DNA of 64,000 nucleotides from an uncultured Clostridium sp. (GTDB lineage Bacteria > Bacillota > Clostridia > Lachnospirales > Lachnospiraceae), in assembly GCA_946553025.1 (NCBI GenBank), contig CAMNRM010000022.1:2726-66725 (forward strand). Direction: 5' to 3'. The translations under genes and the position numbers were made by a program. This document shows positions 4,778-38,175 of this stretch, in pieces. The notes under the pieces are model-generated. The model was not told the DNA's origin and searched no databases. It saw nothing but the letters and a program-made list of their open reading frames with translations. The first letter of the stretch is position 1. Every line of letters starts with the position of its first letter.

Positions 4778-4912
4778 TCGTACACCGCCTTCTCTTACTT
4801 ATCTTCGTTTCACTCATCTTCACTGCAATTATCTTCGTTCCATTTACTTTCGTTTCATACATCTCCATTTTGCACATCTTCGCTGCAATTATCTTCATCC
4901 CATCTATCTCTG

Positions 4913-8599: not shown

Positions 8600-8604
8600 C
8601 CTCC

Positions 8605-9168: not shown

Positions 9169-9327
9169 CAGCCATTACCTCCTGCCTGTTTCAAAAGGAA
9201 CTTGAAATGCCCGATAAATCCAGGCAGCCCCTCCATTCCTCCACTTTATTCCTTTCCCTATTCAAAGGAAATTCGGAATGCCCGATAAAGCGGGGCAGAC
9301 CCTCCGCTCCGCTACTTCCTTGATAGA

Positions 9328-9999: not shown

Positions 10000-10216
10000 A
10001 ACAAAAATGTATACTTTTCTGTAATTTAAAATAGTTCAGAAAATTTTGCTTATTTTTGGATATATTTTGATTTTTTTCAGAACACACCGAGCAAATACTT
10101 GATTTTATAGTAGAAATTCCATGATTTTTATGTTATTATTGAATGGATAACGAAAAAGCGTGGAATCACGGAAAAGTATGCTTTCCTGTAATTCCACGCC
10201 TGATATTTTTCCACAC

Positions 10217-10831
10217 TTACATTTTTTGATAAGCCATCTTTTGATAAATCTCCGCCCGATAGCGAAACGTTGAAAGCGGCATCTTACACATCTTTGCCGC
10301 CTCTGTACATGTAATTTGCCCGGATTTCCAAAGCTGATAAGATTGATAAAAGCTATCCGGCAGGGGCATCGGCGGGCGTCCGAAACGGATTCCTTTTGCC
10401 TTTGCCGCAGCAATTCCTTCCGCCTGACGCTGCCGGATTGCTGTCCGTTCATTTTCTGCCACAAAGGATAACACCTGCAAAACGATATCACTTAAGAATG
10501 TTCCCATTAAGTCCTTTCCTCTCCGGGTATCTAAAAGCGGCATATCCAATACCACGATATCAATTCCTTTTTCCTTCGTCAGTATTCTCCACTGTTCCAG
10601 AATTTCCCCGTAATTGCGCCCCAACCGATCGATACTTTTGATGTAAAGCAAATCATCTTTTTTTAAACACCTCACCATTTGCTGATACGACGGACGCTGA
10701 AAGTCCTTTCCTGACTGCTTATCGATAAAAATATTTTTCTCCGGAATAAATAATTCCTGCAAAGAAATTAACTGTCTGCTTTCCTTTTGCTCATAGCTGC
10801 TCACGCGAATATAACCATACTTATTGACCAT
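10217..10831 (-). CDS. Serine recombinase (resolvase/invertase family) with C-terminal HTH
   Basis: YGYIRVSS catalytic Ser motif, SGKDFQRP, SIDRLGRN, ERTAIRQRQAEGIAAAK. Start moved to ATG 10831 (SD GGAAAGGGG). Confidence 0.9.
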   Translation of the reverse strand: MVNKYGYIRVSSYEQKESRQLISLQELFIPEKNIFIDKQSGKDFQRPSYQQMVRCLKKDDLLYIKSIDRLGRNYGEILEQWRILTKEKGIDIVVLDMPLLDTRRGKDLMGTFLSDIVLQVLSFVAENERTAIRQRQAEGIAAAKAKGIRFGRPPMPLPDSFYQSYQLWKSGQITCTEAAKMCKMPLSTFRYRAEIYQKMAYQKM

Positions 10832-11134: not shown

Positions 11135-11458
11135 CTACACAACTTCTCTAAGTTCCACATATTCATCCATCAAATCTAATAGCCTATCCAGATTATCAGG
11201 ATTGTTAAACTCTTTCATATACTGCAAATCCGATACTAAATTGTCTGATTCACGATTAATCAATTCACTCTTTGTTGTTTGAAGAAGCCTTGCAATCTTA
11301 TCTAATTCAACTGGAGGAATGATAACTTTTCCTTCGATAACATTCCACACATCTTTAATGGAATATCCCAGATGTCTGGCAAATCTACCAGGACTAATGT
11401 TAGCTTCCAGCATACGCATACAAATATTAATGCCAAGCTTTCTTCCTACATTCGCCAT
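11135..11458 (-). CDS. XRE-family HTH transcriptional regulator
   Basis: ISPGRFARHLGYSIKDVWNVIEGK...LDKIARLLQTT helix-turn-helix pattern; good SD (AAAGGGGG). Confidence 0.7.
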   Translation of the reverse strand: MANVGRKLGINICMRMLEANISPGRFARHLGYSIKDVWNVIEGKVIIPPVELDKIARLLQTTKSELINRESDNLVSDLQYMKEFNNPDNLDRLLDLMDEYVELREVV

Positions 11459-11526
11459 TCTACATCCCCCCTTTATTCAACTCAGCAAACACAAACATCC
11501 CCATATAAAAGCTTCATTCCTGTTTC

Positions 11527-15585: not shown

Positions 15586-16599
15586 TTATGCACGCATTTT
15601 TCTCACCCTGCGCCAGATAATTCCCATAATCAGCAGTCCGCTTGCTGCCATCAGTGCCAGCAGCGGCGCATAACTTATCGAACCATCCCCTGTTTTCGGC
15701 AAAAGGCCAAGGGGCGTCAGTACATCCTCGATGAACTGCGTAATAGGATTTGCCAGCGGCACTTCTTCATCATTAATCTGCTCGGGGGTCGGTGTCAAAC
15801 CCTCTAATGGGGTTCCGGCGTCATCAATCACCGATGTCGGTGTGCCTTCCGGGTCAATAATGACTCTTCTTCTGCCTCCGCCGCCGTTATTTCCTCCTCC
15901 GCCACCATTGTTTCCGCCACCGGGATTGTTTGGATTATTAGGATTGTTGGGATTATCGGGGTTATCAGGATTGTCAGGGTTATCGGGATTTTCAGGATTT
16001 TCAGGATCAGTATCGGGTGCTCCGTGTTTCGGTGCTGCTTCCACATCGTAGCGCCACTCTCCCGAAGTATTATTTCTGCTCACCCACAAGGGAAGTGTGG
16101 TCAAAAACGGATTAATTATCGTATCATCCCCTCTGGCAATGGCTGCCTTATCTTCGGGCGAACACACCAGATATAAACCCATGGACAGTTCCGAAAAGCT
16201 GCACTGTCCGTTCTGCGTTCTTTCTTCGGCAAGAGGTGCAATATGATTGTCATTGATAAATTTTCGCAGTATGCCGATTTCCTTTAAAACTTCATCTATT
16301 TCCGTTCCGTCCAGGACAGCTTCGGAGGCGGCAAATTCATCCGTCAGCACATACTTTCCTTCGGCCCCGTTCCATTCTCCCACCTGATAAATCATTATCG
16401 TGGCCGTCTTATCCGCATCTACACTTGCATCTTCTTTTTCCAGCTTAATACTTAAAGATACGGGGCGATTGGTATCAATATTTGCATTATTCGTTGTGTT
16501 TGTGTCTGCAGCAAATGCGGCCTGGCACAAACCAAAGACTGTCAGTATGATTGCCGCCAGAAAAGCTACCATCCTGTTTGTTCTGTTCTTTCTCTTCAT
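15586..16599 (-). CDS. LPxTG (LPKTG) minor/anchor pilin with P-D/N-N repeats and Gly tract
   Basis: Signal peptide, pilin-like N-domain (FSELSMGLYLV, INPFLTTLP), (PDN)n 9-bp repeats, LPKTG + TM + basic tail; next to sortase. Confidence 0.75.
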   Translation of the reverse strand: MKRKNRTNRMVAFLAAIILTVFGLCQAAFAADTNTTNNANIDTNRPVSLSIKLEKEDASVDADKTATIMIYQVGEWNGAEGKYVLTDEFAASEAVLDGTEIDEVLKEIGILRKFINDNHIAPLAEERTQNGQCSFSELSMGLYLVCSPEDKAAIARGDDTIINPFLTTLPLWVSRNNTSGEWRYDVEAAPKHGAPDTDPENPENPDNPDNPDNPDNPNNPNNPNNPGGGNNGGGGGNNGGGGRRRVIIDPEGTPTSVIDDAGTPLEGLTPTPEQINDEEVPLANPITQFIEDVLTPLGLLPKTGDGSISYAPLLALMAASGLLIMGIIWRRVRKMRA

Positions 16600-16631
16600 G
16601 GCTACCTTCTTTCTTCTCTGTTCTGCTGCTT

Positions 16632-17627
16632 TTAGAGAGTTCGTTTCTTTGTTTTCCGGCTGGCAGCTTGCTTTTTGGCTTTGCCATCTTCTTTTCCTTC
16701 TTCGGCTGTTTCGCCGGAATCTGTTCCCGTTGTTTTAGTTCCTGTGCCTTTTGCCTTCGCGCTGTTCTTTCCGGGAAGCAGAAGCCCTGCTCCAATCGCT
16801 GCCCCAAATGCCGCAATTCCAAACCAGATCCACTGTTTCGTCGTGAATCCATTGCCCTGCTGATCTTCCTCTTTAGGTACATCGGAATCCGCCGGAGTCG
16901 GCTTCATCTTCACTTCTTCCTCGTATTTTCCGTCATAGGGAATACGGGTTCCGTGGATGAGCATCCGGTGACTGTTGATGCCGTAGGGGGTGCAGGTCAC
17001 TAAAGTAACATAATCCTCTCCGGGGGTGATGGATAAACCTTCAACCTCCTCGGGGAGAACGATTTCAATCTGATCAATTTGGTATTCCAGGATTTCTCCT
17101 AAAACTTTGATGTAAAAAATATCTCCAACTTCCAGGCGGTCTAAATCCGTGAAAAGCTTCGCCGACGGAAGGCCGCGGTGCCCGGTTAATATCGCATGAG
17201 TGCTCTCGCCGCCGATGGGGAGGGAGGAGCCGATGTAGTGACCGGAAGCAATCTGGAGAACTGCCTCGTCTGTGCCGTGATAGATAGGAAGGTTGATTTT
17301 TACGGAAGGGATTTTGATGGAAGCCATAATGCCATTTCCGGTAATATTTAACAGGTTATCATAAAGCTTATCCTCCCGCTCCTCTTCCACGGTTGCGGCC
17401 ACACTCAAATTGTCAAACTCGGCAAGATATTCATTATATGCCACCGCAGATTCCCATTCCTTCGTGTAATCCTCTTCTTCCATCTGCTCAATTGCCACAT
17501 CATAATTGGCAATCGCCCGGGAAGAATTTTTTTCATTAATATAGTCACTAATTGTCGGATAAAGGAGTACAGAAAGACCCGTGAGGAAAATCAATCCAAT
17601 TATGCAATTTATTATTATTCTCTTCAT
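16632..17627 (-). CDS. srtC: Class C (pilus) sortase
   Basis: LPIYHGT, HAILTGHRGLPSAKLFTDLD, TLVTCTPYGINSHR; N- and C-terminal TM segments. Confidence 0.93.
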   Translation of the reverse strand: MKRIIINCIIGLIFLTGLSVLLYPTISDYINEKNSSRAIANYDVAIEQMEEEDYTKEWESAVAYNEYLAEFDNLSVAATVEEEREDKLYDNLLNITGNGIMASIKIPSVKINLPIYHGTDEAVLQIASGHYIGSSLPIGGESTHAILTGHRGLPSAKLFTDLDRLEVGDIFYIKVLGEILEYQIDQIEIVLPEEVEGLSITPGEDYVTLVTCTPYGINSHRMLIHGTRIPYDGKYEEEVKMKPTPADSDVPKEEDQQGNGFTTKQWIWFGIAAFGAAIGAGLLLPGKNSAKAKGTGTKTTGTDSGETAEEGKEDGKAKKQAASRKTKKRTL

Positions 17628-17726
17628 CGGGCCTTTCTTTCCTTTCTTAAATTATCTCAATACTTAGCTGTCTGTTTCATGATTCTTTTGAAAATTTATT
17701 TGTTATACTTTTCTTGATTAACTTAC

Positions 17727-19298
17727 TTATGCTTTCTTTCTTCTAACAACGAAAAATACTGCACCTGCCATTAAGACAATTCCTGCTGCGTAGAAGATAG
17801 TTGTACCGATACCACCGGTGGAAGGAAGAAGTGCACCTGTATTATTAAGAACAGCAACCTCATCAACAACACCGCCATTATAAAGTGTATTTCCTGCTTC
17901 CGCCTCCACTGTTTCACCATTTAACACATAATTTGTATCTTCACCTGCCACTTCAATTGTAAGTGATTCTGTTAATTTATTATATCCGTTTGGTGCCTTT
18001 TCCTCTGTTAATGTATATGTTCCTGATGCCAACCCCTTAATTGTAATGTGTCCACTTGCTGGAGTAGTGATATCTTCTGTACCATTTGGATCTACCGTAT
18101 ATACAGAAACACCATTTACTGTTGCTGGCGTTGCATTAACCTTAATTTTTCTGCCATTTGCATCACTTAAACTAAATACTGCATTGGCTAATCCGGTATT
18201 TGTCCCAGTATATTTAAAAATATCTACATCCCAAGTTTTTGTTTTTGTCGTACTTACAACACTATGTTTATTGTCACCATACTGTACATCTGCTTTATTT
18301 TCGTATTCAGTACCAACAATTGCCGCACTAGTTAGAGTTGCCGTATATGTTATGGTAATTACATCGCCATTCTCTAAACCATTACAAAAAGCTTCTGTAA
18401 ATTCAATTTCAAAATCACAACCATCTGTTGCATTAGCTCCAAGCTGTTTATATCCACTAGCATTAGCACTATTATCATCAGTTACATTAGCTACATCTGT
18501 TCCATTACCCTGCCCGCCTTTTTTAAGCATAACACTTTTTACTTCACTAAAGGATAATGCATCATCCATTTTATCATGTAATTTATAGTTCTGTGCACCA
18601 TCTTTTGCATTAATATCTACTGTAAATTTAATTTCCTTGCCAATTTCAGCAGAACCATTTGCCACACCATCTGCTTTTTTCTCTACCGTAGGTACTTCAT
18701 TTTTTTCTATAATAATAGCATTACTATCCGTTGTATTTAATGAACACAATGCACCAGTGGTAGAATCTACTAAATAATATCCCAATGAAAGATTAGGAAT
18801 ATTAATTTCACCTTCTGTTTCATCTCCAGTACTAGTATACGAAAATGGACCTCCAGCTACTGCAGATATACTGTTACTATTAGCATATGTTAAAGCTGCC
18901 TTAGCAAAACTTTCAGCATCTGCATTCTGTTTCCATCCGCTTACATATCCATTATTAAATGTCACATAATTACTTCCTTCGCCGTTCTCCCCAAAAAAGT
19001 TCTCCCAGCCACTAGCAACTTTATAAGAATATGCTCCACCAGTGATTGTAGATACTCCTTCATCATCTACTTCCTTATCATCATAACGATAACTATCCAA
19101 ATCAAATATTTTATATACATTGTACTCTTGGCCTTTTATTGCATTCTTAATCGTTATTGACCCAGTTTTATAATTTGTATCTCCTGTTATTGAAGAACCG
19201 GAATCTGATGTTGGCTGTTCTGCGAAACTTGGTGCTGCCATTGCCAATACCATTGTAGATGCTAAAACTGCGCATAAAAATTTTTTCATTTTTCTCAT
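17727..19298 (-). CDS. Major (shaft) pilin, SpaA/SpaH/EbpC type
   Basis: Signal peptide, YENKA pilin motif, E-box YTLTEEKAPNGY, LPSTGG + TM + RRKK. Confidence 0.88.
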   Translation of the reverse strand: MRKMKKFLCAVLASTMVLAMAAPSFAEQPTSDSGSSITGDTNYKTGSITIKNAIKGQEYNVYKIFDLDSYRYDDKEVDDEGVSTITGGAYSYKVASGWENFFGENGEGSNYVTFNNGYVSGWKQNADAESFAKAALTYANSNSISAVAGGPFSYTSTGDETEGEINIPNLSLGYYLVDSTTGALCSLNTTDSNAIIIEKNEVPTVEKKADGVANGSAEIGKEIKFTVDINAKDGAQNYKLHDKMDDALSFSEVKSVMLKKGGQGNGTDVANVTDDNSANASGYKQLGANATDGCDFEIEFTEAFCNGLENGDVITITYTATLTSAAIVGTEYENKADVQYGDNKHSVVSTTKTKTWDVDIFKYTGTNTGLANAVFSLSDANGRKIKVNATPATVNGVSVYTVDPNGTEDITTPASGHITIKGLASGTYTLTEEKAPNGYNKLTESLTIEVAGEDTNYVLNGETVEAEAGNTLYNGGVVDEVAVLNNTGALLPSTGGIGTTIFYAAGIVLMAGAVFFVVRRKKA

Positions 19299-19683
19299 AA
19301 TCGTTTTCCTTTCTTATTTTTGAAATTATTAATGATTACGTTGCTAAACCAACTGCTTATTTACACCTGCATAAAGTCCACATAATACGAATACCTATTT
19401 TATATAAACCTCACACAAATGCTTTTTCATCTCCTTTTCTTTTCCCCTCGCCTCCTTTACTGTTTCGGTCAAATTTGTACGTTGATCTATCGGTTTTTAT
19501 TTGTCAACTGACAGCTTTTTTCTGCCTATTACTTGCTGTCTATTACCTTCTGCCCGTTTTCTGTTTTCAATCTCCAATCATCTCCGTACAATCTTTGCAG
19601 TGCTTTATGTATACCTGTGAGAGCAGATACTTAATTTCCTACATTCTATTCTCTGCCCTCACAAGAACTACATTACTTTAGGA

Positions 19684-22600
19684 TTATATTTCGTCAACCT
19701 GAATTCTCTTTCTGCGCTCCCCATAATACTGTACTTCCATTCCTGCCATCATCAAAGCAAGTAATAACAGTACCCAGCCAAATTCTTTAATTAATCCTAA
19801 TCCAGGGCCGCCAGTGTCGGGAAGAACTGCGGTATATGCAGGTTCGTTGGTTACCTCTAATACATTGTTTGTAATACCTTGCCTTTGGCCTTCCGTATTG
19901 TAATAATAGCAATTGACTGTTCCATCTTCCTGAACAATTATTTCTATCTTGATGTCTTCTTCCAACAACTTATATCCTGGTGCCGTCTTAACTTCATGCA
20001 GATAATAATAACCTGGTGCCAGATTAGAAAACGTAAATGTACCAAATTTTGTTCTCTTCTCAGTATCTACATTTGCTGTCCCCGCCGTCATTGTTACAAC
20101 ATCGCCAATTGGCTTATATACCTCAGAATCCTTGCTCCAATTTTCATCGGTACTATACAGCTGAAATTCAACATCTTCTACTTTTGATGAAGAAAAGCTT
20201 GTTCCATCCTCTAAAATCTTTTTTACGGAAAAACTTCCTTTTACCGCTACATAATGCGCATAAAAGATTTTTGGACCTGTTATTGACCAGCTTGATGGTG
20301 CTTTATTTACATATTTGTCTTCATACCATCCATCAAAACGATATATGGTTCCATCCCCTGCTACATAAATTTCAGGAAAAGCTTTATCTGCATTGTGGGG
20401 CTGAATCTTACCCTCCTTATTCGCTTCTGATATAATAGGAATGGTTGAGAAATTGCCTTGTGCATCTTTCGTATATTTTACACTTACCGTTTCTGCATCC
20501 TTATCAGGATAAACCACCTCATATCCTATATTCACTGAATTATCAATAAGTAACGTAACCATACCATCAACATGCAATAACGTAGTTCTATCAATTACAG
20601 GCGGTTTCGTTTCCTCACCTTTGATTGTATAACCGTTAGAAGCAAGCGATACCGTTAATGTTGACCAGCTAAGTTGATAACTCCAATTCTCATCCCTGCC
20701 ATAATATTTATCTAATCCTTTGTTGATTGATGATTCAGTTGGTCCGCTTATAATCAAACTTTCAATATCTTCTCGTGATTCACGCCTATCAAACTTATCC
20801 GGAACAATTACTTCTCCAAATGTAGTTACACCTGTTGTCACATTTTTTTTATTTGTTATATCTGTAGGATCTTCTTGGGGACCAACATACGTATAATCCT
20901 TTTTATTTCCTGTTTCAGTACTCTGTGGCAAAAGCACATAGAATAACGTCTTATAAGAAAATACCGCATAATATCTCGTAACTCCAACACTCGTATCTAC
21001 ACTTAAACCAGTTCCATTATGATAATCTTTTGAATTTGGTTCTAATGCCCATCCCTTAAAGTTAAGACTATTAATAAAATTATGAAACGAAGGATTACCT
21101 GTTTGCTTACTGGATGATGTCAGCTTTCCTCTTATCGCTTCCGGTTCACCTTCAAAATACGGCGGTATTGGTGTTTCACCATCTCCGACATAAGTAACCT
21201 TGTCAAGTTCACCATTTACATACCACTCAACTTTGTGGAGATTTACATTTGGCCTATCAATTATCCAATAAAATCTGCTTGCATTATTTGTTTCGGTAGT
21301 TGTTTCCGTATTTACTGTTTTATCAGTATTTAAGGAAATTGTTGTGTTTAATGTTGCAAAAGCGGCACTAGTAACTCTGTTATTATCGTTATTATACGTG
21401 CCTGTAATTGTCGTTGTAATTACATTGTTAATTCTACTTTGGGTAACAGAAAAATCAGTTATCAAATAAGTACTATTGCCATTCTTATAATAGACGTTTG
21501 TCGGATGCACAGTAGTTTTATCATCAACCGATGTTATGCCTGATAGTGCAAGGTTAATATCTTCAACCGATATTGTTTTTATACCAAGAGCGCTTACACT
21601 AGAATCGTTACTAGTGTTTACAGGAAAAGTAACATCACCCGTCCCAAGACTTACATATTGACTTCCATTAATTGTCACAGCTGCAGTTTCACCGGCATCA
21701 GCTTCCCGATACACGTTCACATTCACATTGGCATCTACTCGTTTCAGATTTCCCGTATCCCAACCTGAATTTCCAATAATCGCCCAAACCGTAAAATGCT
21801 CCGCCCTTACCTGAATACTGTCAATACTATCCCCTTCATCCTCCTGAATCCGGGTTATTTCGTCTTCATTTACACGGATATCTTCTGCCGTTACATCCTC
21901 TAACAGCGGAAGGGTTTCCACTTCCCCGTCGGCTGCCTCTACGATTTGTGTAGGCGTTTCCAGTGGTGCGACTTCTATGCTTTCTCCGTTTTGTTTCAGT
22001 TCTTCGATTCTTTCACCGGAAAATTCTACATTGACATAGTTTCCGCTCCAGGAAGCATTGCTCAGTTTTTTTCCGTCAAGCATCAGGTTAATATCATAGG
22101 CAATTACGGTCTGTACTTCGGTTCCTTTTTCTGCCTTGACATTTTCCTTTACGGCTTCTTCTACTTTTTCGGTTACTTCCTCTACCGTAAGATAAGTTCC
22201 CTCCGGAAGAATATTCTCTCCTGCGGATACGGTAACGGTCACGCCGTTTACGGTTTTCGACTCCCGGAATGCCGGATGTGTTCCTTCGGTGATTTCCTTC
22301 AAGGTAATCTCAATATCCTGGCTTTCCAGTACTGAAGGTATCCTGAAATATTTGGTATCTTCTTTTACATAGTCCTCGTTTACTTTTTCCGCATTTGATG
22401 CACTGGCCAGGTTTTCCGGATTTACTTTTTCCAGCATTTCGCCATTTGCCGTTACCTCAAAAACCCGATAGCCAACCTGCGGCGTTACTCCAAAGATAAC
22501 TTCCGATTCATCCCTTACCAGTTCCGGTGCATTGACCACAACTGCACTTCCTGCCGGTGAAATGGTGTAGGTGAGAATATGTCCGCCCTCGATTAAGTCT

Positions 22601-24762
22601 TCTTTATTCATCCCCAGCTTTTCTAAGGTGGTTACGAATGCTCTGGCGGTTAAACCGTCTTCAAATGCAACCAGATTGAGAACCTTTCCTTCCAGGACTC
22701 CCCTTTTCTTAAATGGGTCCGTTTCTTCTACAGGTGTCTGATTGCCTTCGATTTCTGCGAGTTCATCTTCTTCCCAGATTTCTTCCTCGGCGTCAAATAC
22801 TGTTTCCGTTTCTGTTGTTTCCCCGGTCACTGCCTCTGCTCCGGCGGCTACTATTTCTGCTGTTTCCCCGGTCGTTGCTTCGGCTACTGCTTCCGCCGCT
22901 TCTTCAGTCACTGCCTCCGATCCGGCTTCCATTTCCGCCGTTTCTTCGGTCATTGCCTCCGCTTTGCTTTCGGTTTCTGCTGTTTCCCCGGTCACTGCTT
23001 CTGTTTCAGCTTCGGTTTCAATCAAAACTTCTGTTTCTTTCTCCGTTTCTGACTCTTCCTCTGTTTTCGGTTCTGTTTCTATTTCCGATTCTTCCTCGGT
23101 TTCCGGCTCTTCTATTTCCGGCTCTTCCTCGTTTTCTGTTTCTTCTTCCGGTTCTGAAACTTCTGAAGCTTCTATCTCTTCTGCCGAAATATCTTCCGGT
23201 TCTGCTACCCGCAAAATCTGGTGCGGGGAAATTTGCAGGCTGTTTATGCTGACTTCCTTGGCGGAACTGTTTTCGGATTTGGAATCTGATGATTTGGAAT
23301 CTCCGGATTTAGAATCTTCTTTATGGTCATTTCCGGAAGATGCCTTATCATCTTTCGCTCCGCTTTTTTCTTCTTTCGAGGAATCCTTTTCTGTTGTCTT
23401 ATCACTGCCAGACGACTTATCTTTATCTGACCCAGATTGTTCGCTTCCGGACGACTTATCCTTATCTGCCCCAGACTGCTCGCTTCCGGATGACTTATCT
23501 TTATCCGATGCAGACCGTTCGCTTCCGGACTTATTCCCTGCCTCTGCCTTGTCAGCGGATTTTTCTCCGTCTTTGTTTTCATTGACCGCTTTTTCGGATT
23601 CCTGCCCATGATTATTATCTTTATCGCTGCTTACTTCACTACTGTTTCCTTTGCTGTCATTTTCTTTACTGTCGTTTTCTTTGATACCGTTTTCCTTACT
23701 GTCGTCAGCTTTACTGTCATTTCCCTGATTGCCGCTTACTTCACCGTTATCTTCTTTACGGTCAGCTTCCGCGCTGTTATTTTCTTTCTTACCGTTTACT
23801 TCCTGATTATCTTCTTTATTATTTTCTTCTTGACTGCCTTCTTCTTGACGGCTTCCTTCATTCTCCTTCTCATCTGCTTTTCCTTCCTCTGACGCCGCTG
23901 CGGATTCGGTCGGATGCTGTTTATCGGAAGTTTCTGTCATTATCTCTTCGCGGCTTTCTCCGGCTGCAGTTTCCTCTGCTCTGCTCTCATGGTCCTGCAC
24001 TGCTTCAATACTTTCCTCATCTTGATTTACCGCTTCGCCTTCCTCTTCCCTGCCTGCTCCTTTGCTCTCTTCGCCCGGATTTACGTTTTCATCTGCCGTT
24101 TCACTATCCTGCTTTGCCTCTTCACTGCTCAGCTTACCGCTCTCATCACCTGCCCCGGAACCATTTCCCAAAACAGAACCACCAGAAGCACTTTCCCCGT
24201 CCTTCTCTTCCTCATCCCCAAATACTGCTTCATATGCTCTTACGGTACTGAATCCGGAAATCAAACCGTCGATGTTCAGTCTTGCCGATATACTTTCTTC
24301 GCCGTCATTGATATACACAAAGTACAGTTCCTCTTCCCCGTTCAATACATGGGTTTTTGGATCGGCTTCTTCGGGCAGGCGCATAAATACTCTTAAATCT
24401 ACCCCGTCCACACCCTTTACGGTTCCGGTTTCCTTGGTAAGATTCAATTCATACAGCTTCCCGTCTGCGGCAAATAATTTTTCATATTCTTTTACAACAT
24501 TTTCATCTTTGCCGCTAATTAAAATTTCCTTACTTATCGCCTCTCCCTTATCCAGTGCCTTTTCTGCGGCCTTCTGGATATCCTTTGCACGAATCTGGAA
24601 TTCTTCCCTGGGTGCCGGAGTTGCTGCTGAAACCGTATTTACCGAAGTGGCCATATTTCCGATTATCATCACAGCCGTCAGCACCATGGACATCCACGCC
24701 CTTATCTGATGCGTTGCGTTTATCCGCCGCGTGCTCTTTCGTGACCTTCCTCTTGCCTCCAT
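19684..24762 (-). CDS. Large LPxTG (LPDTG) tip adhesin / surface protein
   Basis: 1692 aa; signal peptide, long acidic low-complexity stalk, ASASNA motif, C-terminal SpaA domain with E-box YYYLHEVKTAPGY, LPDTGG + TM. Confidence 0.8.
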   Translation of the reverse strand: MEARGRSRKSTRRINATHQIRAWMSMVLTAVMIIGNMATSVNTVSAATPAPREEFQIRAKDIQKAAEKALDKGEAISKEILISGKDENVVKEYEKLFAADGKLYELNLTKETGTVKGVDGVDLRVFMRLPEEADPKTHVLNGEEELYFVYINDGEESISARLNIDGLISGFSTVRAYEAVFGDEEEKDGESASGGSVLGNGSGAGDESGKLSSEEAKQDSETADENVNPGEESKGAGREEEGEAVNQDEESIEAVQDHESRAEETAAGESREEIMTETSDKQHPTESAAASEEGKADEKENEGSRQEEGSQEENNKEDNQEVNGKKENNSAEADRKEDNGEVSGNQGNDSKADDSKENGIKENDSKENDSKGNSSEVSSDKDNNHGQESEKAVNENKDGEKSADKAEAGNKSGSERSASDKDKSSGSEQSGADKDKSSGSEQSGSDKDKSSGSDKTTEKDSSKEEKSGAKDDKASSGNDHKEDSKSGDSKSSDSKSENSSAKEVSINSLQISPHQILRVAEPEDISAEEIEASEVSEPEEETENEEEPEIEEPETEEESEIETEPKTEEESETEKETEVLIETEAETEAVTGETAETESKAEAMTEETAEMEAGSEAVTEEAAEAVAEATTGETAEIVAAGAEAVTGETTETETVFDAEEEIWEEDELAEIEGNQTPVEETDPFKKRGVLEGKVLNLVAFEDGLTARAFVTTLEKLGMNKEDLIEGGHILTYTISPAGSAVVVNAPELVRDESEVIFGVTPQVGYRVFEVTANGEMLEKVNPENLASASNAEKVNEDYVKEDTKYFRIPSVLESQDIEITLKEITEGTHPAFRESKTVNGVTVTVSAGENILPEGTYLTVEEVTEKVEEAVKENVKAEKGTEVQTVIAYDINLMLDGKKLSNASWSGNYVNVEFSGERIEELKQNGESIEVAPLETPTQIVEAADGEVETLPLLEDVTAEDIRVNEDEITRIQEDEGDSIDSIQVRAEHFTVWAIIGNSGWDTGNLKRVDANVNVNVYREADAGETAAVTINGSQYVSLGTGDVTFPVNTSNDSSVSALGIKTISVEDINLALSGITSVDDKTTVHPTNVYYKNGNSTYLITDFSVTQSRINNVITTTITGTYNNDNNRVTSAAFATLNTTISLNTDKTVNTETTTETNNASRFYWIIDRPNVNLHKVEWYVNGELDKVTYVGDGETPIPPYFEGEPEAIRGKLTSSSKQTGNPSFHNFINSLNFKGWALEPNSKDYHNGTGLSVDTSVGVTRYYAVFSYKTLFYVLLPQSTETGNKKDYTYVGPQEDPTDITNKKNVTTGVTTFGEVIVPDKFDRRESREDIESLIISGPTESSINKGLDKYYGRDENWSYQLSWSTLTVSLASNGYTIKGEETKPPVIDRTTLLHVDGMVTLLIDNSVNIGYEVVYPDKDAETVSVKYTKDAQGNFSTIPIISEANKEGKIQPHNADKAFPEIYVAGDGTIYRFDGWYEDKYVNKAPSSWSITGPKIFYAHYVAVKGSFSVKKILEDGTSFSSSKVEDVEFQLYSTDENWSKDSEVYKPIGDVVTMTAGTANVDTEKRTKFGTFTFSNLAPGYYYLHEVKTAPGYKLLEEDIKIEIIVQEDGTVNCYYYNTEGQRQGITNNVLEVTNEPAYTAVLPDTGGPGLGLIKEFGWVLLLLALMMAGMEVQYYGERRKRIQVDEI

Positions 24763-24983
24763 CTTCTTCTCCCTTCCTTTTCTCTGCCCTATCTTTCTCT
24801 ATTCGCCTGCTGCCTTGTTTTCTCTGTTCTGTCTTTCTCCGCCAACCTGCTGCCTTATCTTCTCTATTCTGTCTTTCTCCGCCAGCCTGCTGCCTTATCT
24901 TCTCCGTTCTGTCTTTCTCCACCAGCCTGCTACCTTATCTTCTCTATCCTGTCTTTCTCCATCAGCCTGCTGCCTTGTCTTCT
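24761..24983. repeat. 40-bp tandem repeat, about 5 copies, immediately upstream of the adhesin start
   Basis: GTCTTTCTCC recurs at 24831, 24871, 24911 and 24951; unit approximately GCCAGCCTGCTGCCTTATCTTCTCTATTCTGTCTTTCTCC. Confidence 0.9.
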
Positions 24984-25142
24984 TCCATAGCATTGTCCAT
25001 CAGTTTTACCAGTTCCAGAAAACTGCGGAACGTCAGGGTTTCGTTCTTCCCCAGCCATGTTACCTGTCCCTGCCAGGTTGCGTTTTCCTGACTCAGGATA
25101 TGCACAACGAATGTTTCTTTTCTGTTCATTCCATCCTCCACT

Positions 25143-26384
25143 CTATGCCCCTTTTTGCGGGCATTCCAGCCGCTGTGCCTGTTCTACCTCATCCACAGAA
25201 TATTCTACCTTTGCCCGCCCTCCGACCTTTTTCCATTTGCTCTTCAGCCGGGAAAGCATCTGATTTTTATTTGCTCTTCCTGCGCCGGACAGCAGCACCA
25301 GATACTGGTTTTTGCTGTACTGCGTATAGACATCACCCGCACGGGTTCCTTCGGAGATTACCTTCTTAAACAGTTCCATCTGCTCCTTGCTTTCGTCTTC
25401 CCTCCACTCTCCCCGATCCGCGGACAATGTACATAAAAGCAAAAGACTTTGTTCTTTATTCGTTTCATCCATCCTCGCCCGTATTCGGTAAATATCCATA
25501 AAACTCGGATAACTGCACGGATATGCACCAATGGTTTTTTCTTTTTCGTCTTCGTCCAGCATTTCTTTCATCTTTTCCAGCGCCTGAACCAGAGGAACCT
25601 GATTGGAAGGCGGCGGATATTTGACCATAACCCGTTCTAAGGAATTCACACCCAGGTCTTTATAAAACAGTTCACTTGCTTCCGTATAAACTTTCTCGGC
25701 TTCCTTCCTGCGGTCTAACGCCATCAGACATTCAATCTGCAGCGCCTGCCATTCATCATAAGGATGAAACTGACTGGCCGATGCGGCAAAATGCAGAAGC
25801 CGTTCAAATTTCTTCTGCTCTTTTAAGCGAATGGAAAGCTGATTTAAACAGGTGAAATACCATTTCTGGTAATGTGCGCTTTCCATAACCACCCATTCTT
25901 CCCCGCCCAGTACGGAGAGGAACTCTCCTGTATAACTTTCACAGTATTCTTCATACAGCTTCCAGAGCTTTTGTTTTTCTTCTTCTGTACCCGTCCGGCT
26001 TCGGATTTGGCGGATAATTCCATCCAGCTTTTCCGTATCCGCCGACAGCGGATAGTCTAAAGTAAAGTAATAACGCCCGCCCCGGTATATGATGTAATCT
26101 CCCGGAGGAAATTCTGTACTGTTAATCAATTCACGCATCCGATGAAGCTGCTGGCGGAAGTTATTCAGCCGTTTTTTATTATCGGTTTCTCCCGGACGAA
26201 CCAGTTCCACAAGTTCCTTCTTTTCACATCCCTGCGCTCCGGCTTTCAGCAGATAGTAGATTAACTGCATGGTCTTTCCCTGGGGATTGGTCTTTAATGT
26301 TATTCTCTGCCCTAAAAAACACAGAGAAAATTCGCCTAAAAACTTTACATAAAACCCTTTCGACGATTTATCGTTCATGAACAT
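25143..26384 (-). CDS. SARP/BTAD-family transcriptional activator with degenerate GGDEF-like C-terminal domain
   Basis: VKFLGEFSL winged-helix start, YTGEFL...EEWV...HPYDEW BTAD/TPR region, C-terminal RAGDVYTQYSKNQYLVLL. Start moved to 26384 (SD GGGAAAGGGGG). Confidence 0.75.
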   Translation of the reverse strand: MFMNDKSSKGFYVKFLGEFSLCFLGQRITLKTNPQGKTMQLIYYLLKAGAQGCEKKELVELVRPGETDNKKRLNNFRQQLHRMRELINSTEFPPGDYIIYRGGRYYFTLDYPLSADTEKLDGIIRQIRSRTGTEEEKQKLWKLYEEYCESYTGEFLSVLGGEEWVVMESAHYQKWYFTCLNQLSIRLKEQKKFERLLHFAASASQFHPYDEWQALQIECLMALDRRKEAEKVYTEASELFYKDLGVNSLERVMVKYPPPSNQVPLVQALEKMKEMLDEDEKEKTIGAYPCSYPSFMDIYRIRARMDETNKEQSLLLLCTLSADRGEWREDESKEQMELFKKVISEGTRAGDVYTQYSKNQYLVLLSGAGRANKNQMLSRLKSKWKKVGGRAKVEYSVDEVEQAQRLECPQKGA

Positions 26385-26467
26385 CCCCCTTTCCCTGCAC
26401 CGCCTGCCTGCACGCCTTTTTTGCATGTTCAGGATTCGGTTTTCCTTGATTTTCTGCGGTTTTTTCG

Positions 26468-26497
26468 GTGTCAACTAAACTATACTTTAGTTGACAC
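26468..26497. repeat. Left recombination-type site (12-6-12 quasi-palindrome)
   Basis: GTGTCAACTAAA-CTATAC-TTTAGTTGACAC; the arms are perfect reverse complements. Confidence 0.85.
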
Positions 26498-26604
26498 TAT
26501 TTTTTACAGAAATTGGGCTGAGAATTGTTTTAACTCAGGGATTTTTTTTAAGATTTACAAAGAATATGTCTGATAATAATAGAATACAAGCGCAAATTTA
26601 CTGC

Positions 26605-26633
26605 ACAATAAAAAAAGAAACTCCGAGTGTCAA
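26605..26633 (-). promoter_or_regulatory. Sigma-A promoter inside the putative invertible segment, facing the BTAD regulator and pilus genes
   Basis: Minus strand TTGACA (26633-26628), 17-bp spacer, TATTGT (26610-26605). Confidence 0.75.
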
Positions 26634-26656
26634 CTAAAGTATAGTTTGGTTTACAC
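26627..26656. repeat. Right recombination-type site, inverted relative to the left
   Basis: GTGTCAACTAAA-GTATAG-TTTGGTTTACAC equals the reverse complement of the left site with 2 mismatches in the outer arm. Confidence 0.85.
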
Positions 26657-26872
26657 TTTAGAAGCACGCCGAAGCCTGTAATTCTCGCTGCTATTTGCCC
26701 GTAAAACACGGTTAAATATGGGCTTTCTATCGCTTTGTTAGGTTGAGTATAGCATATAAGGTGTTAAAAAAAGCATTTCATCTCTGAAAAAAAATGAAAT
26801 TTTTTCAAATTTTTTCGGAATGGATTGCACGGATAAGCATATAAGTAAAGAAGGATACCCGTAAAAATACAA

Positions 26873-35735: not shown

Positions 35736-36281
35736 ATGGCACCGGCACAGGAAAACGTCTATACTCTCGATGATATCTATGCTCTTCCGGAAGGACAAAG
35801 GGCAGAATTAATTGACGGTCAAATCTATGGCATGGCTCCTGTGATGCGTATTCATCAGCATCTGCTTATGAACCTTTCTGCCCTGATTCATCGTTATATC
35901 CAAAAGAAAAAAGGGGCCTGCCTGGTTTACCCTGCCCCTTTTGCCGTATTTCTTAATCAGGATAACCACAACTATGTGGAACCGGATATTTCGGTTATCT
36001 GTGACCCGTCAAAGCTTAACGAACGCGGATGCAACGGTGCGCCGGACTGGATCATCGAAATTATTTCCCCGTCAACCCAGCAGATGGATTACGGCATAAA
36101 ACTCTTTAAATACCGCACAGCCGGGGTAAGGGAATACTGGATTGTTAATCCTGTAACACAAACCATTAATGTCTACGACTTCGCGCACGAAAAAACGACG
36201 GGTCAATACAGCTTTAAGGATACGATTCCGGTAAATATTTTCCCTGATTTAAGCATACAGGCTGAACAACTGCTTAAATAA
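35736..36281 (+). CDS. Uma2/DUF820-family PD-(D/E)XK endonuclease
   Basis: RAELIDGQI, VEPDISVICD, GAPDWIIEIISPS, GVREYWIVNP. Confidence 0.88.
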   Translation: MAPAQENVYTLDDIYALPEGQRAELIDGQIYGMAPVMRIHQHLLMNLSALIHRYIQKKKGACLVYPAPFAVFLNQDNHNYVEPDISVICDPSKLNERGCNGAPDWIIEIISPSTQQMDYGIKLFKYRTAGVREYWIVNPVTQTINVYDFAHEKTTGQYSFKDTIPVNIFPDLSIQAEQLLK

Positions 36282-36284
36282 AAC

Positions 36285-36416
36285 GTTACTGTTCACACGT
36301 TCACAGTAACGGGCAAAAATCCATGAAAATCGCCTTCGTCGATGGGATTTTTGCTCACTGGCCCAGTTTAACATACGGTCAGCGCAGCAAGTGCGCAGAC
36401 CTACGTGAACAGTAAC
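36285..36416. mobile_element. 132-bp MITE-like element with 12-bp TIRs and 8-bp target duplication
   Basis: TIR GTTACTGTTCAC...GTGAACAGTAAC; AATAAAAC on both flanks (36277-36284, 36417-36424); internal hairpins. Confidence 0.75.
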
Positions 36417-36434
36417 AATAAAACGCACCTTCGC

Positions 36435-37262
36435 CTACTCTGCATCCCAATCCAGAAGCAGCTCCTCCACCCAGGCACAAAGCTTGCTGCTGCTCTCATT
36501 GGCAATGCGCACAACTTCTTCATGGGTATGCTTTTCCCTGGCTATACCCGTAGCCATGTTGGTGATGCAGGCAATCCCCAGTACCTTCATTCCCAGATAA
36601 TTTGCCACGATGGTTTCCGGTACGGTGGACATGCCGATAGCATCTGCACCAAGCCGCTCATAGGCCCGGATTTCCGCCGCAGTTTCATAGCAGGGACCGG
36701 AAAAGATGGCATAGACGCCCTTTTGATAAGCAATTCCCAGCGCCTTTGCCGTTTCCTCGGCTTTTGCCAGCAGTTCTAAGGAATAGGCTTCGGACATATC
36801 CGGGAAGCGCACGCCCAGACGCTCGTCATTCTCCCCAATCAGCGGGTTATTTCCCAGCATATTGATATAATCGGTTAATAACATCAAATCCCCCGGCACA
36901 AATGCCCGGTTAATCCCGCCGCAGGCATTGGTCACAATCAGGTTCTTCACCCCTAAAAGCTTCATCACGTAAATCGGATAGGTCACTTCCTTCATGGTAA
37001 AGCCTTCATAGAAATGAAATCTTCCCTGCATGGCAATAATGATTTCCTTGCCCATCCTGCCAATCACCAGATTCCCTGCATGTCCCGCCACACTCGACTG
37101 CGGGAAATTGGGGATTTCCTTGTAGGGGATGATGATTTTGTCCTCCATCTTATCCACCAGACTCCCCAAACCGCTGCCTAAAATCACACCGGTTGACGGT
37201 ATCTTATATATCCTCTCCCGAATAAAATCTGCTGATTCCTTCACTTTTTCGTAAAACATCAT
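36435..37262 (-). CDS. punA: Purine-nucleoside phosphorylase (trimeric)
   Basis: GVILGSGLG, GRFHFYEG, GPCYETAAE, GMSTVPE, TNMATG. Confidence 0.92.
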   Translation of the reverse strand: MMFYEKVKESADFIRERIYKIPSTGVILGSGLGSLVDKMEDKIIIPYKEIPNFPQSSVAGHAGNLVIGRMGKEIIIAMQGRFHFYEGFTMKEVTYPIYVMKLLGVKNLIVTNACGGINRAFVPGDLMLLTDYINMLGNNPLIGENDERLGVRFPDMSEAYSLELLAKAEETAKALGIAYQKGVYAIFSGPCYETAAEIRAYERLGADAIGMSTVPETIVANYLGMKVLGIACITNMATGIAREKHTHEEVVRIANESSSKLCAWVEELLLDWDAE

Positions 37263-37317
37263 GTTCTCTTCCCTTCCTTTTTTTCATTTTGTACAAGTTT
37301 AAGTTTACCTTTTTATT

Positions 37318-38172
37318 TCATCCTTTATTACTCTTTTTATGATCTCTTTCAATCCTCAACAGACGAAAACGTTCACCCTTGCGATATCCAAAACATCGCA
37401 TCCTGCTGCTAAAACGAAACTTCATTATTGTCACACCATCATAAATCGAATAACGAAACCAGTCCTCTTCTGCTGACGATGGGGAATATTTTTTGTACTC
37501 CAAGCCATCATCCAGACCAATCGATTCCCAAGATTCATGCCTTACAAATTTATCCAAAGTTTTCAAAAGAATATGATATTCCTCTTTCTCTAACTTTTCT
37601 GCCCCATATTCTTTTTCCAGCAATGAACAATCCAAGCGCGTTTTAGCATAACGGGCCTTTAGGCATTCATCTCGGCCTAACCCCATTTGCTCACCAAAGT
37701 ATTCTGCCAAATAGGATGGCTGATAAATGGAAGCCACATAATACTCCCCGCCATTCCACTTAATCAAAAGCTGCGTATCTGAATAAATCGCTGATTGGAA
37801 GGACAACAAACTCTCTTTCCGCTCTACTGCCTCTGCTACCGCTGTAGCTGCCACATCCTCCTTCCCCATCCAATACGGCATCCCATAATCATGAGCCGGT
37901 GATAAGTCCCAATATGGTTCCGTCCGCATCTCTTTATCCAATGCAATCCTTAAACGGCTTAATGCATCTGATCTTGGATATTCTTTTAAATCCCCCAGCT
38001 TCTGATTTTCTGTCACCTGGCATTTATAAAAATCTGCAATTTTTCTGATTTCTCCATCCTTCTGACAGCGCACCAGCCTGAAGCAGTGTAAATTAGACTC
38101 AAGGCTGCGCAAAAATTCCTCCACGGTTTTAAACTGTCCATGCAGCGATCTTTCGTTTAATATAAAATTCAA
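37318..38172 (-). CDS. Hypothetical protein, putative defence effector with RelE-like C-terminus
   Basis: Coupled to the ATPase gene; C-terminal KFRFSSRMRCFGYRKGERFRLLRIERDH resembles RelE/ParE-fold beta strands. Confidence 0.45.
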   Translation of the reverse strand: MNFILNERSLHGQFKTVEEFLRSLESNLHCFRLVRCQKDGEIRKIADFYKCQVTENQKLGDLKEYPRSDALSRLRIALDKEMRTEPYWDLSPAHDYGMPYWMGKEDVAATAVAEAVERKESLLSFQSAIYSDTQLLIKWNGGEYYVASIYQPSYLAEYFGEQMGLGRDECLKARYAKTRLDCSLLEKEYGAEKLEKEEYHILLKTLDKFVRHESWESIGLDDGLEYKKYSPSSAEEDWFRYSIYDGVTIMKFRFSSRMRCFGYRKGERFRLLRIERDHKKSNKG

Positions 38173-38175
38173 TTT

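What the first reader, a model, noticed from the sequence alone, without database searches (positions are those of the whole stretch)
26468..26656. Invertible promoter switch controlling the pilus regulator (phase variation)
Seen: two 30-bp sites with 12-bp arms and an asymmetric 6-bp core, GTGTCAACTAAA-CTATAC-TTTAGTTGACAC (26468-26497) and GTGTCAACTAAA-GTATAG-TTTGGTTTACAC (26627-26656). The cores are inverted and 22 bp match perfectly, enclosing 153 bp between cores. Inside lies TTGACA-N17-TATTGT, whose -35 is supplied by the right inner arm; it points at the BTAD regulator and pilus operon (ON). The equivalent TTGACA in the left arm has no -10. Known: arm-6bp-arm sites are typical of tyrosine recombinases, and C. 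difficile switches of similar size (flg, cwpV, cmr) are flipped in trans by RecV. No tyrosine recombinase is in this window. Inference: an undescribed trans-driven inverton gating a SARP activator and a sortase pilus.
Basis: partly seen in the sequence, partly recalled or inferred. Interest (0 to 1): 0.9.

Follow-up and report, generated by a model that had tools for sequence, protein, structure and literature searches.

The report
DNA inversion switch before pilus regulator
Two 30-bp palindromic sites flank a 159-bp segment, almost certainly flippable, just upstream of the regulator of a pilus operon in a rodent-gut Lachnospiraceae bacterium; sister copies at related pilus loci occur in both orientations in public assemblies.

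Summary
In detail: two 30-bp sites (26468-26497, 26627-26656) lie upstream of a BTAD regulator that heads a sortase-pilus operon. The 12-mer GTGTCAACTAAA occurs three times against 0.00 expected.

The inversion reading is supported through homologues. The same architecture precedes BTAD regulators of related pilus loci in rodent-gut Lachnospiraceae. In two sister loci, 1 of 10 and 3 of 19 assemblies carry the stretch between the site centres as an exact reverse complement, with identical flanks. A third sister locus adds one low-depth contig.

This window's own copy was seen in one orientation only, in four spanning contigs.

- The consensus site is a perfect palindrome, with centre AT in 16 of 18 sites, so the "asymmetric core" is incidental.
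- The internal TTGACA-17-TATTGT is not conserved across the family.
- A promoter-like motif is conserved outside the switch in every locus.

In the window's orientation the leader RNA can form a long hairpin followed by a U-run. Its outer helix spans the fixed/invertible junction and shows compensatory changes. The switch therefore looks like the C. difficile cwpV type, an invertible terminator, with the window probably in the OFF state.

The recombinase is unidentified. The window's only recombinase is a small serine recombinase next to BREX.

The parts
26468..26497 (.). Regulator-proximal recombination site A: GTGTCAACTAAA-CTATAC-TTTAGTTGACAC. It has perfect 12-bp arms and its centre lies between 26482 and 26483.
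   Evidence: It matches the family half-site consensus GTGTCAACYAAAGTA.
26627..26656 (.). Regulator-distal recombination site B: GTGTCAACTAAA-GTATAG-TTTGGTTTACAC. Its centre lies between 26641 and 26642. It is identical to the regulator-proximal site of sister element L017.
26483..26641 (.). Predicted invertible segment, 159 bp from site centre to site centre. It is AT-rich, with the T-rich strand reading toward the regulator.
   Evidence: By homology with sister loci where exactly this interval is reverse-complemented: 144 bp in L032 versus L030, and 146 bp in L067, L071 and L074 versus L061. Orientation relative to the regulator is the same in all reference copies.
26746..26780 (-). Fixed promoter-like motif outside the switch: TGAAATGCTTTTTTTAAC (26780..26763), 8 nt (ACCTTATA), then TGcTATACT (extended -10, with TATACT at 26751..26746). 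It reads toward the switch and the regulator.
   Evidence: The 18-mer is unique in the window. It is conserved upstream of the distal site in all loci examined, including the switch-less P0021 locus, single-site L013, and L084. Promoter function is inferred.
26608..26675 (-). Predicted orientation-dependent terminator in the leader RNA. The 5' arm is 26675..26669 (fixed flank), followed by the site B hairpin. The 3' arm is 26626..26620 (inside the invertible segment). The U-run is 26619..26608.
   Evidence: RNAfold gives dG -21.8 kcal/mol with a stem ending at the U-run. RNAalifold on four paralogues gives an 8-bp outer helix with no broken pair and 2 pairs with compensatory double changes. 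The same design appears in 7 of 7 loci. Function is inferred.
26605..26633 (-). It overlaps the U-run of the predicted terminator.
   Evidence: 10 of 12. Conserved in L017 with a 16-nt spacer, but not in L012 (GTTGTG). No counterpart in L014, L016 or the P0030 locus.
25143..26378 (-). BTAD-domain (SARP-like) regulator of 411 aa, the first gene downstream of the switch.
   Evidence: Pfam PF03704, E 2.9e-07. 55 homologues at E<=1e-20. The few that carry a source name, and the genome MAGs holding the sites, are Lachnospiraceae.
24962..25129 (-). Conserved 55-aa ORF that follows the regulator in the window-type, P0021, P0030 and P0031 loci.
   Evidence: Gene calls. No Pfam match.
15586..24762 (-). 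Pilus structural genes: 1692-aa SpaA-domain adhesin (19684-24762), LPXTG backbone pilin (17727-19298), class C-like sortase (16632-17627), and a 337-aa LPXTG minor pilin (15586-16599).
   Evidence: The same gene order is found in sister loci.
10217..10831 (-). Small serine recombinase of about 204 aa, the only recombinase found in the window. It is a possible but unproven catalyst.
   Evidence: Pfam Resolvase, E 4.1e-26. It is far below the Mpi family cut-off, 41.9 versus 272 bits. Its family is very abundant, and in the two contexts examined it sits beside BREX or restriction-modification genes.

Best explanation
The two 30-bp near-palindromes are the crossover sites of a short site-specific DNA inversion switch. 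The invertible segment is 26483-26641 (159 bp). It sits in the 5' leader of the BTAD regulator gene that heads a sortase-pilus operon.

The switch is one copy of a family. Several paralogous regulator-pilus loci per genome, in rodent-gut Lachnospiraceae, carry the same sites. A recombinase encoded elsewhere binds the 15-bp half-sites GTGTCAACYAAAGTA and exchanges strands within positions 14-18 of the site, most simply at the central AT.

Transcription most likely starts at a fixed, conserved promoter upstream of the switch (26746-26780, minus strand). In the orientation present in the window, the leader RNA pairs a fixed flank with the inner end of the invertible segment around the site B hairpin. 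A U-run follows directly, which makes an intrinsic terminator, so the regulator and pilus are OFF. Inversion removes the 3' arm and the U-run from that position, and read-through then expresses the regulator, which turns on the pilus genes.

Shown: the sites; the family; exact inversions in sister loci; the conserved outer motif; the predicted hairpins and their covariation.
Inferred: inversion of this copy; recombinase identity; terminator function; the ON/OFF assignment; activation of the pilus genes by the regulator.
For: Sites are real and non-random.

The same paired sites, 144-159 bp apart, lie 75-90 bp upstream of homologous BTAD regulators in other Lachnospiraceae MAGs and metagenomes.

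Exact inversions in sister loci:
- P0011 locus: L032 is the perfect reverse complement of L030 over 144 bp, with identical flanks and swapped inner half-sites. This is 1 of 10 assemblies.
- P0030/P0031 locus: L067, L071 and L074 are inverted relative to 16 others, with 0 mismatches over 146 bp.
- L017-type locus: one Logan contig in run X25 joins the distal flank to the inverted middle, while X26 and 10 other contigs or assemblies are colinear.

Crossover windows from the three loci overlap at site positions 14-18.

Window site B is identical to the proximal site of L017.

No recombinase lies within 10 kb of two sister loci, so the catalyst acts in trans.

A fixed promoter-like motif is conserved in all loci, including one without a switch.

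In 7 of 7 loci the majority orientation gives a hairpin of -18.6 to -37.3 kcal/mol ending at a U-run. In the inverted form it is -7.7 to -16.8 or absent.

An outer helix across the fixed/invertible junction is kept in 4 of 4 paralogues, with 2 compensatory pairs.

The natural pair L061 and L067 shows a terminator-like site only in the majority orientation.

Precedent: the cwpV switch (PMC2784873).
Against: This particular copy was seen in one orientation only: the window, L001, L002 and L041.

An exact 36-mer for the inverted junction found nothing in JGI metagenome contigs. That collection holds only three related loci, so the test was weak.

Logan contigs cannot cross the sites, because paralogues share identical 30-mers. 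No raw reads were available.

The recombinase is not identified.

For the window's own element the contrast between orientations is modest: -21.8 versus -16.8 kcal/mol. The inverted form would still put UAUUUUUU right after the site hairpin.

A good sigma-70 match (10 of 12) points at the regulator from inside the segment.

There is no usable RNA evidence.

The covariation rests on four sequences.
Confidence: 0.6

Rival explanations
1. Invertible promoter. The segment inverts, but its role is to carry the promoter TTGACA-17-TATTGT, whose -35 lies in the inner arm of site B. The window orientation is then ON, and inversion points the promoter away from the regulator.
For: The match scores 10 of 12 with a 17-nt spacer. 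Similar matches occur in L017 (16-nt spacer) and in a fourth paralogue seen in run X25. A weaker match, TTGAAA-17-TATGTT (9 of 12), points to the regulator in the majority orientation of the P0011 element. Inversion in the family is shown.
Against: The -10 is GTTGTG in L012 and L018, the closest paralogue, whose middle is 91% identical. In L014 the spacing is only 8 nt. No sigma-70 match lies inside the P0030 segment in either orientation. TTGACA is simply part of the recombination half-site, and the 'spacer' is the conserved U-run. A conserved promoter-like motif exists outside the switch. Matches of 9-10 out of 12 occur at 1-2 per 460 nt in shuffles.
Confidence: 0.25
2. Paired operators without inversion at this locus. 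The palindromes bind a dimeric regulator, or the recombinase acting only as a repressor. They loop the 159 bp between them, and this copy no longer inverts, or never did.
For: The consensus site is a perfect palindrome with mostly uncompensated deviations. Single sites occur in leaders of related genes, in L013 and in a locus seen in runs X25, X26 and X28. Only one orientation was seen for this copy.
Against: Homologous pairs of the same sites do invert, exactly at their centres. Window site B is identical to a site of L017, and both window sites match the consensus at least as well as sites of proven switches. Only four spanning contigs were available, which is too few to call the copy fixed, since the minority state is 10-16% of assemblies at sister loci.
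Confidence: 0.1
3. Miniature mobile element. A 190-bp MITE-like insertion with 30-bp terminal inverted repeats has spread among pilus loci, with no regulatory role.
For: It is a multi-copy element whose middle is far more conserved than the adjacent genes: 91% DNA identity against 69% protein identity for the regulators.
Against: It always sits at the same place relative to homologous regulators and the conserved promoter motif. No target-site duplications are evident. The precise inversions are not a MITE property. Flank-to-interior base pairing covaries.
Confidence: 0.03

Closest known systems
Clostridioides difficile cwpV switch (Emerson et al. 2009, PMC2784873)
   Same: A short invertible segment (195 bp there, 159 bp here) lies between a fixed upstream promoter and the gene. 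In one orientation the junction of the repeat and the invertible DNA forms a stem-loop plus poly-U. The recombinase is encoded elsewhere. The majority state is OFF (about 5% ON in cwpV; 10-16% of assemblies in the minority state here).
   Different: The cwpV repeats are imperfect 21-bp inverted repeats, not 30-bp palindromes. RecV is a tyrosine recombinase, and none was found here. The target here is a transcription regulator of a pilus operon, not the surface protein gene itself. The sites recur at several paralogous loci.
C. difficile flgB flagellar switch (PMC5386303, PMC7446863)
   Same: A 154-bp invertible element in a long 5' leader, downstream of the promoter. Control acts after transcription initiation. 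The recombinase acts in trans.
   Different: The OFF state of flgB depends on Rho rather than an intrinsic terminator. The repeats and the recombinase differ.
Bacteroides fragilis Mpi-controlled invertible promoters of capsule loci (PMC10403206 and references therein)
   Same: Many paralogous surface-structure loci in one genome each carry a short invertible segment with shared repeats. These are flipped by one unlinked master recombinase of the serine family, giving combinatorial surface variation in a gut commensal.
   Different: There the segment carries the promoter. The window's serine recombinase is not an Mpi orthologue: 41.9 bits against a cut-off of 272. The phylum, the repeats and the surface structure (sortase pili) all differ.
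E. coli fimS
   Same: Phase variation of a pilus by inversion of a short DNA element.
   Different: fimS is 314 bp with 9-bp repeats. It carries the promoter and is flipped by the adjacent tyrosine recombinases FimB and FimE. (Stated from general knowledge and the summary in PMC2784873.)
Crossover site I of Tn3/gamma-delta res (small serine recombinases)
   Same: From memory: a 28-bp dyad with TGTC at the outer ends of 14-bp half-sites and a central AT where the 2-nt staggered cut is made. The present half-site TGTCAACTAAAGTA|TAC has the same geometry and the same central AT.
   Different: This is a recollection, not tested here. No accessory sites were recognised, and the outcome here is inversion, not resolution.

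Membership tests
Site-specific DNA inversion switch (inverton) | Two recombination sites in inverted relation flank a short segment. | tested here: met
   The half-site consensus is shared with 16 further sites.
Site-specific DNA inversion switch (inverton) | Both orientations of the segment exist in nature, with breakpoints inside the sites. | tested here: inconclusive
   This copy: one orientation in 4 spanning contigs, and 0 hits for the inverted junction. Homologous copies: met at three sister loci.
Site-specific DNA inversion switch (inverton) | A site-specific recombinase catalyses the inversion. | not testable with these tools
   The only recombinase in the window is a small serine recombinase at 10217-10831. 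None lies within 10 kb of the sister loci. No functional or co-occurrence test was possible.
cwpV-type invertible terminator in a leader | The promoter lies outside and upstream of the invertible segment. | tested here: inconclusive
   A conserved extended -10 motif lies upstream of the distal site in all loci and in a switch-less paralogue. No transcription start data are available.
cwpV-type invertible terminator in a leader | A stem-loop plus U-run forms across the repeat/segment junction in one orientation only. | tested here: met
   This is a prediction only. In 7 of 7 loci the hairpin is stronger in the majority orientation. The covarying outer helix is, and the natural pair L061 and L067. 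For the window's own copy the contrast is modest.
fimS / Bacteroides-type invertible promoter | A functional promoter lies inside the invertible segment. | tested here: inconclusive
   A 10 of 12 sigma-70 match is present in the window. It is not conserved in L012 or the P0030 locus, and no counterpart was recognised in L014 or L016.
Mpi-type master-invertase regulon | Several loci in one genome share the same repeats. | tested here: met
   Window-type, L012-type and L017-type flanks meet at identical 30-mers, at similar depth, in the same samples. One MAG carries three paralogous regulators.
Mpi-type master-invertase regulon | An orthologue of the Mpi serine recombinase is present. | tested here: not met
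   NF009949 scores 41.9 bits against a cut-off of 272.
Paired operators of a dimeric transcription factor | Palindromic sites that never recombine. | tested here: not met
   Homologous sites recombine exactly at their centres.

The most novel reading that the evidence does not exclude
A single unlinked recombinase runs a regulon of three or more paralogous pilus loci per genome in gut Lachnospiraceae. In this reading the 30-bp palindromic recombination site doubles as the stem of an orientation-dependent terminator. Because most sites have a symmetric AT centre and are nearly identical between loci, the same enzyme could also delete the segment, leaving single-site, permanently ON leaders such as L013. 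It could also swap segments between loci. That would explain why the middles are far more alike than the genes beside them.
Probability: 0.3. Interest if true: 0.8.

Novelty: new member of a known kind. Interest (0 to 1): 0.62.

Why it matters
Sortase-dependent pili are major adhesion and immune-contact structures of Gram-positive gut commensals. Little is known about how Lachnospiraceae regulate them.

A family of inversion switches, each gating the regulator of one of several pilus loci, would mean that these abundant commensals vary their pilus repertoire cell by cell. Bacteroides does the same with its capsules.

The finding gives exact sites, breakpoints and a testable terminator model. 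It also provides a sequence signature (GTGTCAACYAAAGTA|TAC...) with which to find further switches and the recombinase. My searches of the held papers found no description of it. It may still be listed anonymously in large inverton surveys.

Tried and rejected
1. Logan contig breaks at both sites looked at first like evidence of inversion. Closer inspection showed that two left flanks and two right flanks from paralogous loci meet at identical 30-mers, with no strand-change joints. I rejected the breaks as evidence.

2. I favoured paired operators of a dimeric regulator after finding that the consensus is a perfect palindrome, that deviations are uncompensated, and that single sites exist. I dropped this once exact inversions turned up in sister loci.

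3. The window's serine recombinase was considered as the dedicated invertase. It has more than 8000 close relatives (about 82% identical, for example in Dorea and Phascolarctobacterium). In the two contexts I examined it lies beside BREX or restriction-modification genes. That shows no specific link to the switch, so it remains only a candidate.

4. An apparent clue that a recombinase homologue shared the 7783-nt contig of the inverted L032 was a coincidence of contig length.

5. RNA runs were uninformative. X15 is evenly covered like DNA. X24 and X30 give only sparse contigs.

6. The exact-pattern scan for the inverted junction in metagenome contigs found nothing. The collection barely contains this organism.

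7. A MITE reading was rejected: there are no target-site duplications and the position is always the same.

Within-sample mixtures of the two orientations could therefore not be examined.

Full report
OBSERVATION

Site A is 26468-26497, GTGTCAACTAAA-CTATAC-TTTAGTTGACAC. Site B is 26627-26656, GTGTCAACTAAA-GTATAG-TTTGGTTTACAC. The repeat finder reports 31-nt arms that are 94% complementary, and shows that site A is itself a 15+15 palindrome with one mismatch pair. The 12-mer GTGTCAACTAAA occurs three times in the 64-kb window, all within these sites, against 0.00 expected. With two mismatches allowed, the only other hit in the window is one chance-level match at 15195.

The context is as described. 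On the minus strand lie a BTAD-domain regulator (25143-26378), a 55-aa ORF, a 1692-aa SpaA-domain adhesin, an LPXTG pilin, a sortase and a 337-aa LPXTG minor pilin. To the right, on the plus strand, is an unrelated 431-aa ORF with its own TTGAAA-17-TATAAT promoter. TTGACA-17-TATTGT on the minus strand, at 26633..26605, is present and scores 10 of 12.

FIRST TESTS AND A FALSE LEAD

The locus is found in rodent-gut metagenomes. Only assembled Logan contigs were available, not raw reads. Those contigs stop at both sites in every run, which looks like an inversion signature. It is not.

At the 30-mer 26467-26496 two different left flanks meet, and at 26628-26657 two different right flanks meet. 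The extra flanks belong to a paralogous locus, and no strand-change joints are reported. The breaks therefore reflect paralogues that share identical sites.

Two NCBI MAG contigs (L001, L002) and one contig of a 95% orthologue (L041) cross a junction. All have the window's orientation. An exact 36-mer specific for the inverted junction found nothing in the metagenome contig collection. That collection holds only three related loci, so the test was weak.

A FAMILY OF ELEMENTS

A pattern scan of one genome per species found the site in four Lachnospiraceae MAGs. The metagenome scan found three more loci.

Pairs of sites 144-159 bp apart lie 75-90 bp upstream of homologous BTAD regulators, which are 42-69% identical in protein. 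These are followed by adhesin, pilin and sortase genes. The middle of the closest paralogue (L012/L018) is about 91% identical to the window's, although the regulators are only 69% identical.

The window-type, L012-type and L017-type loci occur at similar depth in the same samples. One MAG encodes three paralogous regulators. I conclude that one genome carries several such loci.

Across 18 sites the half-site consensus is GTGTCAACYAAAGTA. The 6-bp centre is the palindrome GTATAC in 10 sites, and the central dinucleotide is AT in 16. The "asymmetric core" of the window is therefore a one-base departure from a palindrome in each site, not a defining feature.

At this stage paired operators seemed the better reading. 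Single sites also occur, for example L013 in the leader of a pilus operon.

DIRECT EVIDENCE OF INVERSION IN SISTER LOCI

I searched for homologues of the regulator and fetched the contigs that encode three of them.

P0011 locus (regulator 63% identical):
- Nine assemblies have site 1 GTGTAAACTAAAGTA|TACATTAGTTGACAG and site 2 GAATCAACCAAAGTA|TACTTTGTTTTACAC.
- One assembly (L032, ENA ERZ17985896) has the inner half-sites swapped and reverse-complemented.
- The 144 bp between the site centres is the exact reverse complement, and both flanks are identical.

P0030/P0031 locus (51% identical, next to a VWA-domain adhesin, a pilin and a sortase):
- 16 assemblies have one orientation.
- Three (L067, L071, L074) have the other.
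- There are 0 mismatches over 146 bp, and the flanks are identical.
- In this locus the central dinucleotide is AC in one site and GT in the other.

L017-type locus:
- Its proximal site is identical to window site B.
- One 257-nt Logan contig in run X25 joins the distal flank to the inverted middle.
- A contig in run X26 carrying the same SNP is colinear, as are ten other contigs or assemblies.
- That single low-depth contig (depth 2.7) is weaker evidence.

The crossover can be placed at site positions 10-18 (P0011), 13-21 (P0030) and 14 onward (L017). The overlap is positions 14-18, which includes the centre.

In total, 42 junction-spanning contigs have the orientation seen in the window and 5 have the other. 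The assemblies come from SPAdes or MEGAHIT, and the perfect repeats are shorter than 20 bp. Misassembly is therefore not a plausible cause.

I conclude that the family consists of true site-specific inversion switches. The window's copy matches the site consensus at least as well as the proven copies, so it is very probably one too.

THE RECOMBINASE

No tyrosine recombinase is encoded by the window's ORFs of at least 150 aa. There is one small serine recombinase (10217-10831, minus strand), between brxA of a BREX system and the fructose-bisphosphatase gene.

It is not an Mpi orthologue. It belongs to a very abundant family that is about 82% identical across genera. In the two contexts examined it lies beside BREX or restriction-modification genes. 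It is a candidate without specific support.

No recombinase gene lies within 10 kb of the P0011 or P0030 loci.

From memory, the site geometry resembles crossover site I of Tn3/gamma-delta res: TGTC at 11-14 bp from a central AT. That hints at a small serine recombinase, but I did not test it.

WHAT THE ORIENTATION DOES

The internal TTGACA-17-TATTGT is not a family feature:
- In L012 and L018 the -10 is GTTGTG.
- In L014 the spacing is 8 nt.
- The P0030 segment has no sigma-70 match in either orientation.

In contrast, every locus has a strongly conserved motif upstream of the distal site, reading toward the regulator: TGAAATGCTTTTTTTAAC, then about 8 nt, then TGnTATACT. This holds for the switch-less P0021 locus, single-site L013 and the distant L084. 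In the window the motif is unique, at 26746-26780 on the minus strand. It looks like an extended -10 promoter with an activator or UP-type upstream element. The switch therefore lies in the leader, as in the C. difficile cwpV and flgB switches.

In the majority orientation, RNA folding gives a long hairpin at the distal site in all seven loci examined. It ends directly at a U-run (dG -18.6 to -37.3 kcal/mol). In the computed inverted form, the best hairpin followed by a U-run is -7.7 to -16.8 kcal/mol, or absent.

The hairpin is more than the palindromic site. Its outer helix pairs the fixed flank with the inner end of the invertible segment. On four paralogues RNAalifold keeps all 8 pairs, two of them through compensatory double changes, for example ACTTTGA/TCAAAGT in L017 against ACTCCGA/TCGGAGT in L011. 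TTTCTTTTTT follows the helix directly.

In the natural pair L061 (majority) and L067 (inverted), the simple scan finds a terminator-like site only in the majority form. This is the design proposed for cwpV: the promoter lies upstream, and an intrinsic terminator forms at the junction of repeat and invertible DNA in the OFF orientation (PMC2784873).

Caveats:
- The contrast for the window's own copy is modest (-21.8 versus -16.8 kcal/mol). Its inverted form would still place UAUUUUUU after the site hairpin.
- The covariation rests on four sequences.
- There are no transcript data.
- The invertible-promoter model keeps about a quarter of the probability.

COMPARISON AND NOVELTY

In mechanism the element is closest to the cwpV switch. 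In organisation it is closest to the Mpi regulon of Bacteroides fragilis, where many paralogous surface loci are controlled by one unlinked recombinase.

It differs from both in four ways:
- The sites are 30-bp palindromes, mostly with a symmetric centre.
- The target is a SARP-like BTAD regulator.
- The output is sortase pili.
- The host is a rodent-gut Lachnospiraceae.

My searches of the held papers found no description of it. I rate it a new member of a known kind. It has an open and interesting question about the recombinase, and about whether symmetric sites also permit deletion or exchange between loci.

VERDICT

The inversion-switch interpretation is supported through homologues, but has not been seen for this copy. 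The best model is an invertible terminator in the leader of the pilus regulator, caught in the OFF state.

Noticed in passing
window 24780-24983: A 40-bp unit is repeated 5.1 times (85% matches), between the 55-aa ORF and the start of the 1692-aa adhesin gene. Tandem direct repeats are what SARP/BTAD regulators typically bind, so this may be the regulator's target at the pilus promoter.
   Followed up: partly
window 2333-10831: A BREX-type defence island: brxA 9328-9999, brxB 8605-9168, brxC 4913-8599, and an Eco57I/MmeI-type methyltransferase at 2333-4777. A small serine recombinase and an XRE-type HTH gene (11150-11461) sit at its edge. Homologues of this recombinase lay beside BREX or restriction-modification genes in the two contexts examined.
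   Followed up: partly
window 26488-26640 versus L012, L018 and runs X1, X2, X3: The 190-bp element is far more conserved between paralogous loci (about 91%, with identical 30-mers at the sites) than the adjacent regulators (69% protein identity). In run X3, flanks of the L012 type join the window-type sites exactly. This suggests gene conversion or recombinase-mediated exchange of the segment between loci. Assembler bubble-popping could mimic part of it.
   Followed up: partly
L013 6260-6289; also contigs in runs X25, X26 and X28: Single copies of the 30-bp site lie in leaders downstream of the same conserved promoter motif, with no partner site and no U-run. They could be products of deletion between two sites, giving a locked state.
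   Followed up: no
L020-L029 (P0021 locus): This paralogous BTAD regulator and pilus locus keeps the conserved promoter motif but has no recombination sites. It is a natural switch-less control.
   Followed up: partly
window 24962-25129 (-): A 55-aa ORF with no family match follows the regulator in the window-type, P0021, P0030 and P0031 loci. Its function is unknown.
   Followed up: no
L011 1-5900: In one MAG the distal flank of a switch abuts the 3' end of another complete pilus operon. Pilus loci can therefore lie in tandem. The contig ends 18 nt inside the switch.
   Followed up: no
window 35736-39210: A Uma2-family endonuclease-like gene (35736-36281) and an AAA_15/AAA_21 ATPase (38176-39210), flanked by ORFs with no family match. 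This may be another small defence locus.
   Followed up: no
window 26467-26498 (+): Read on the plus strand, site A followed by ATTTTTTACA scores as an intrinsic terminator. It would stop antisense transcripts that run from the regulator side into the switch.
   Followed up: no
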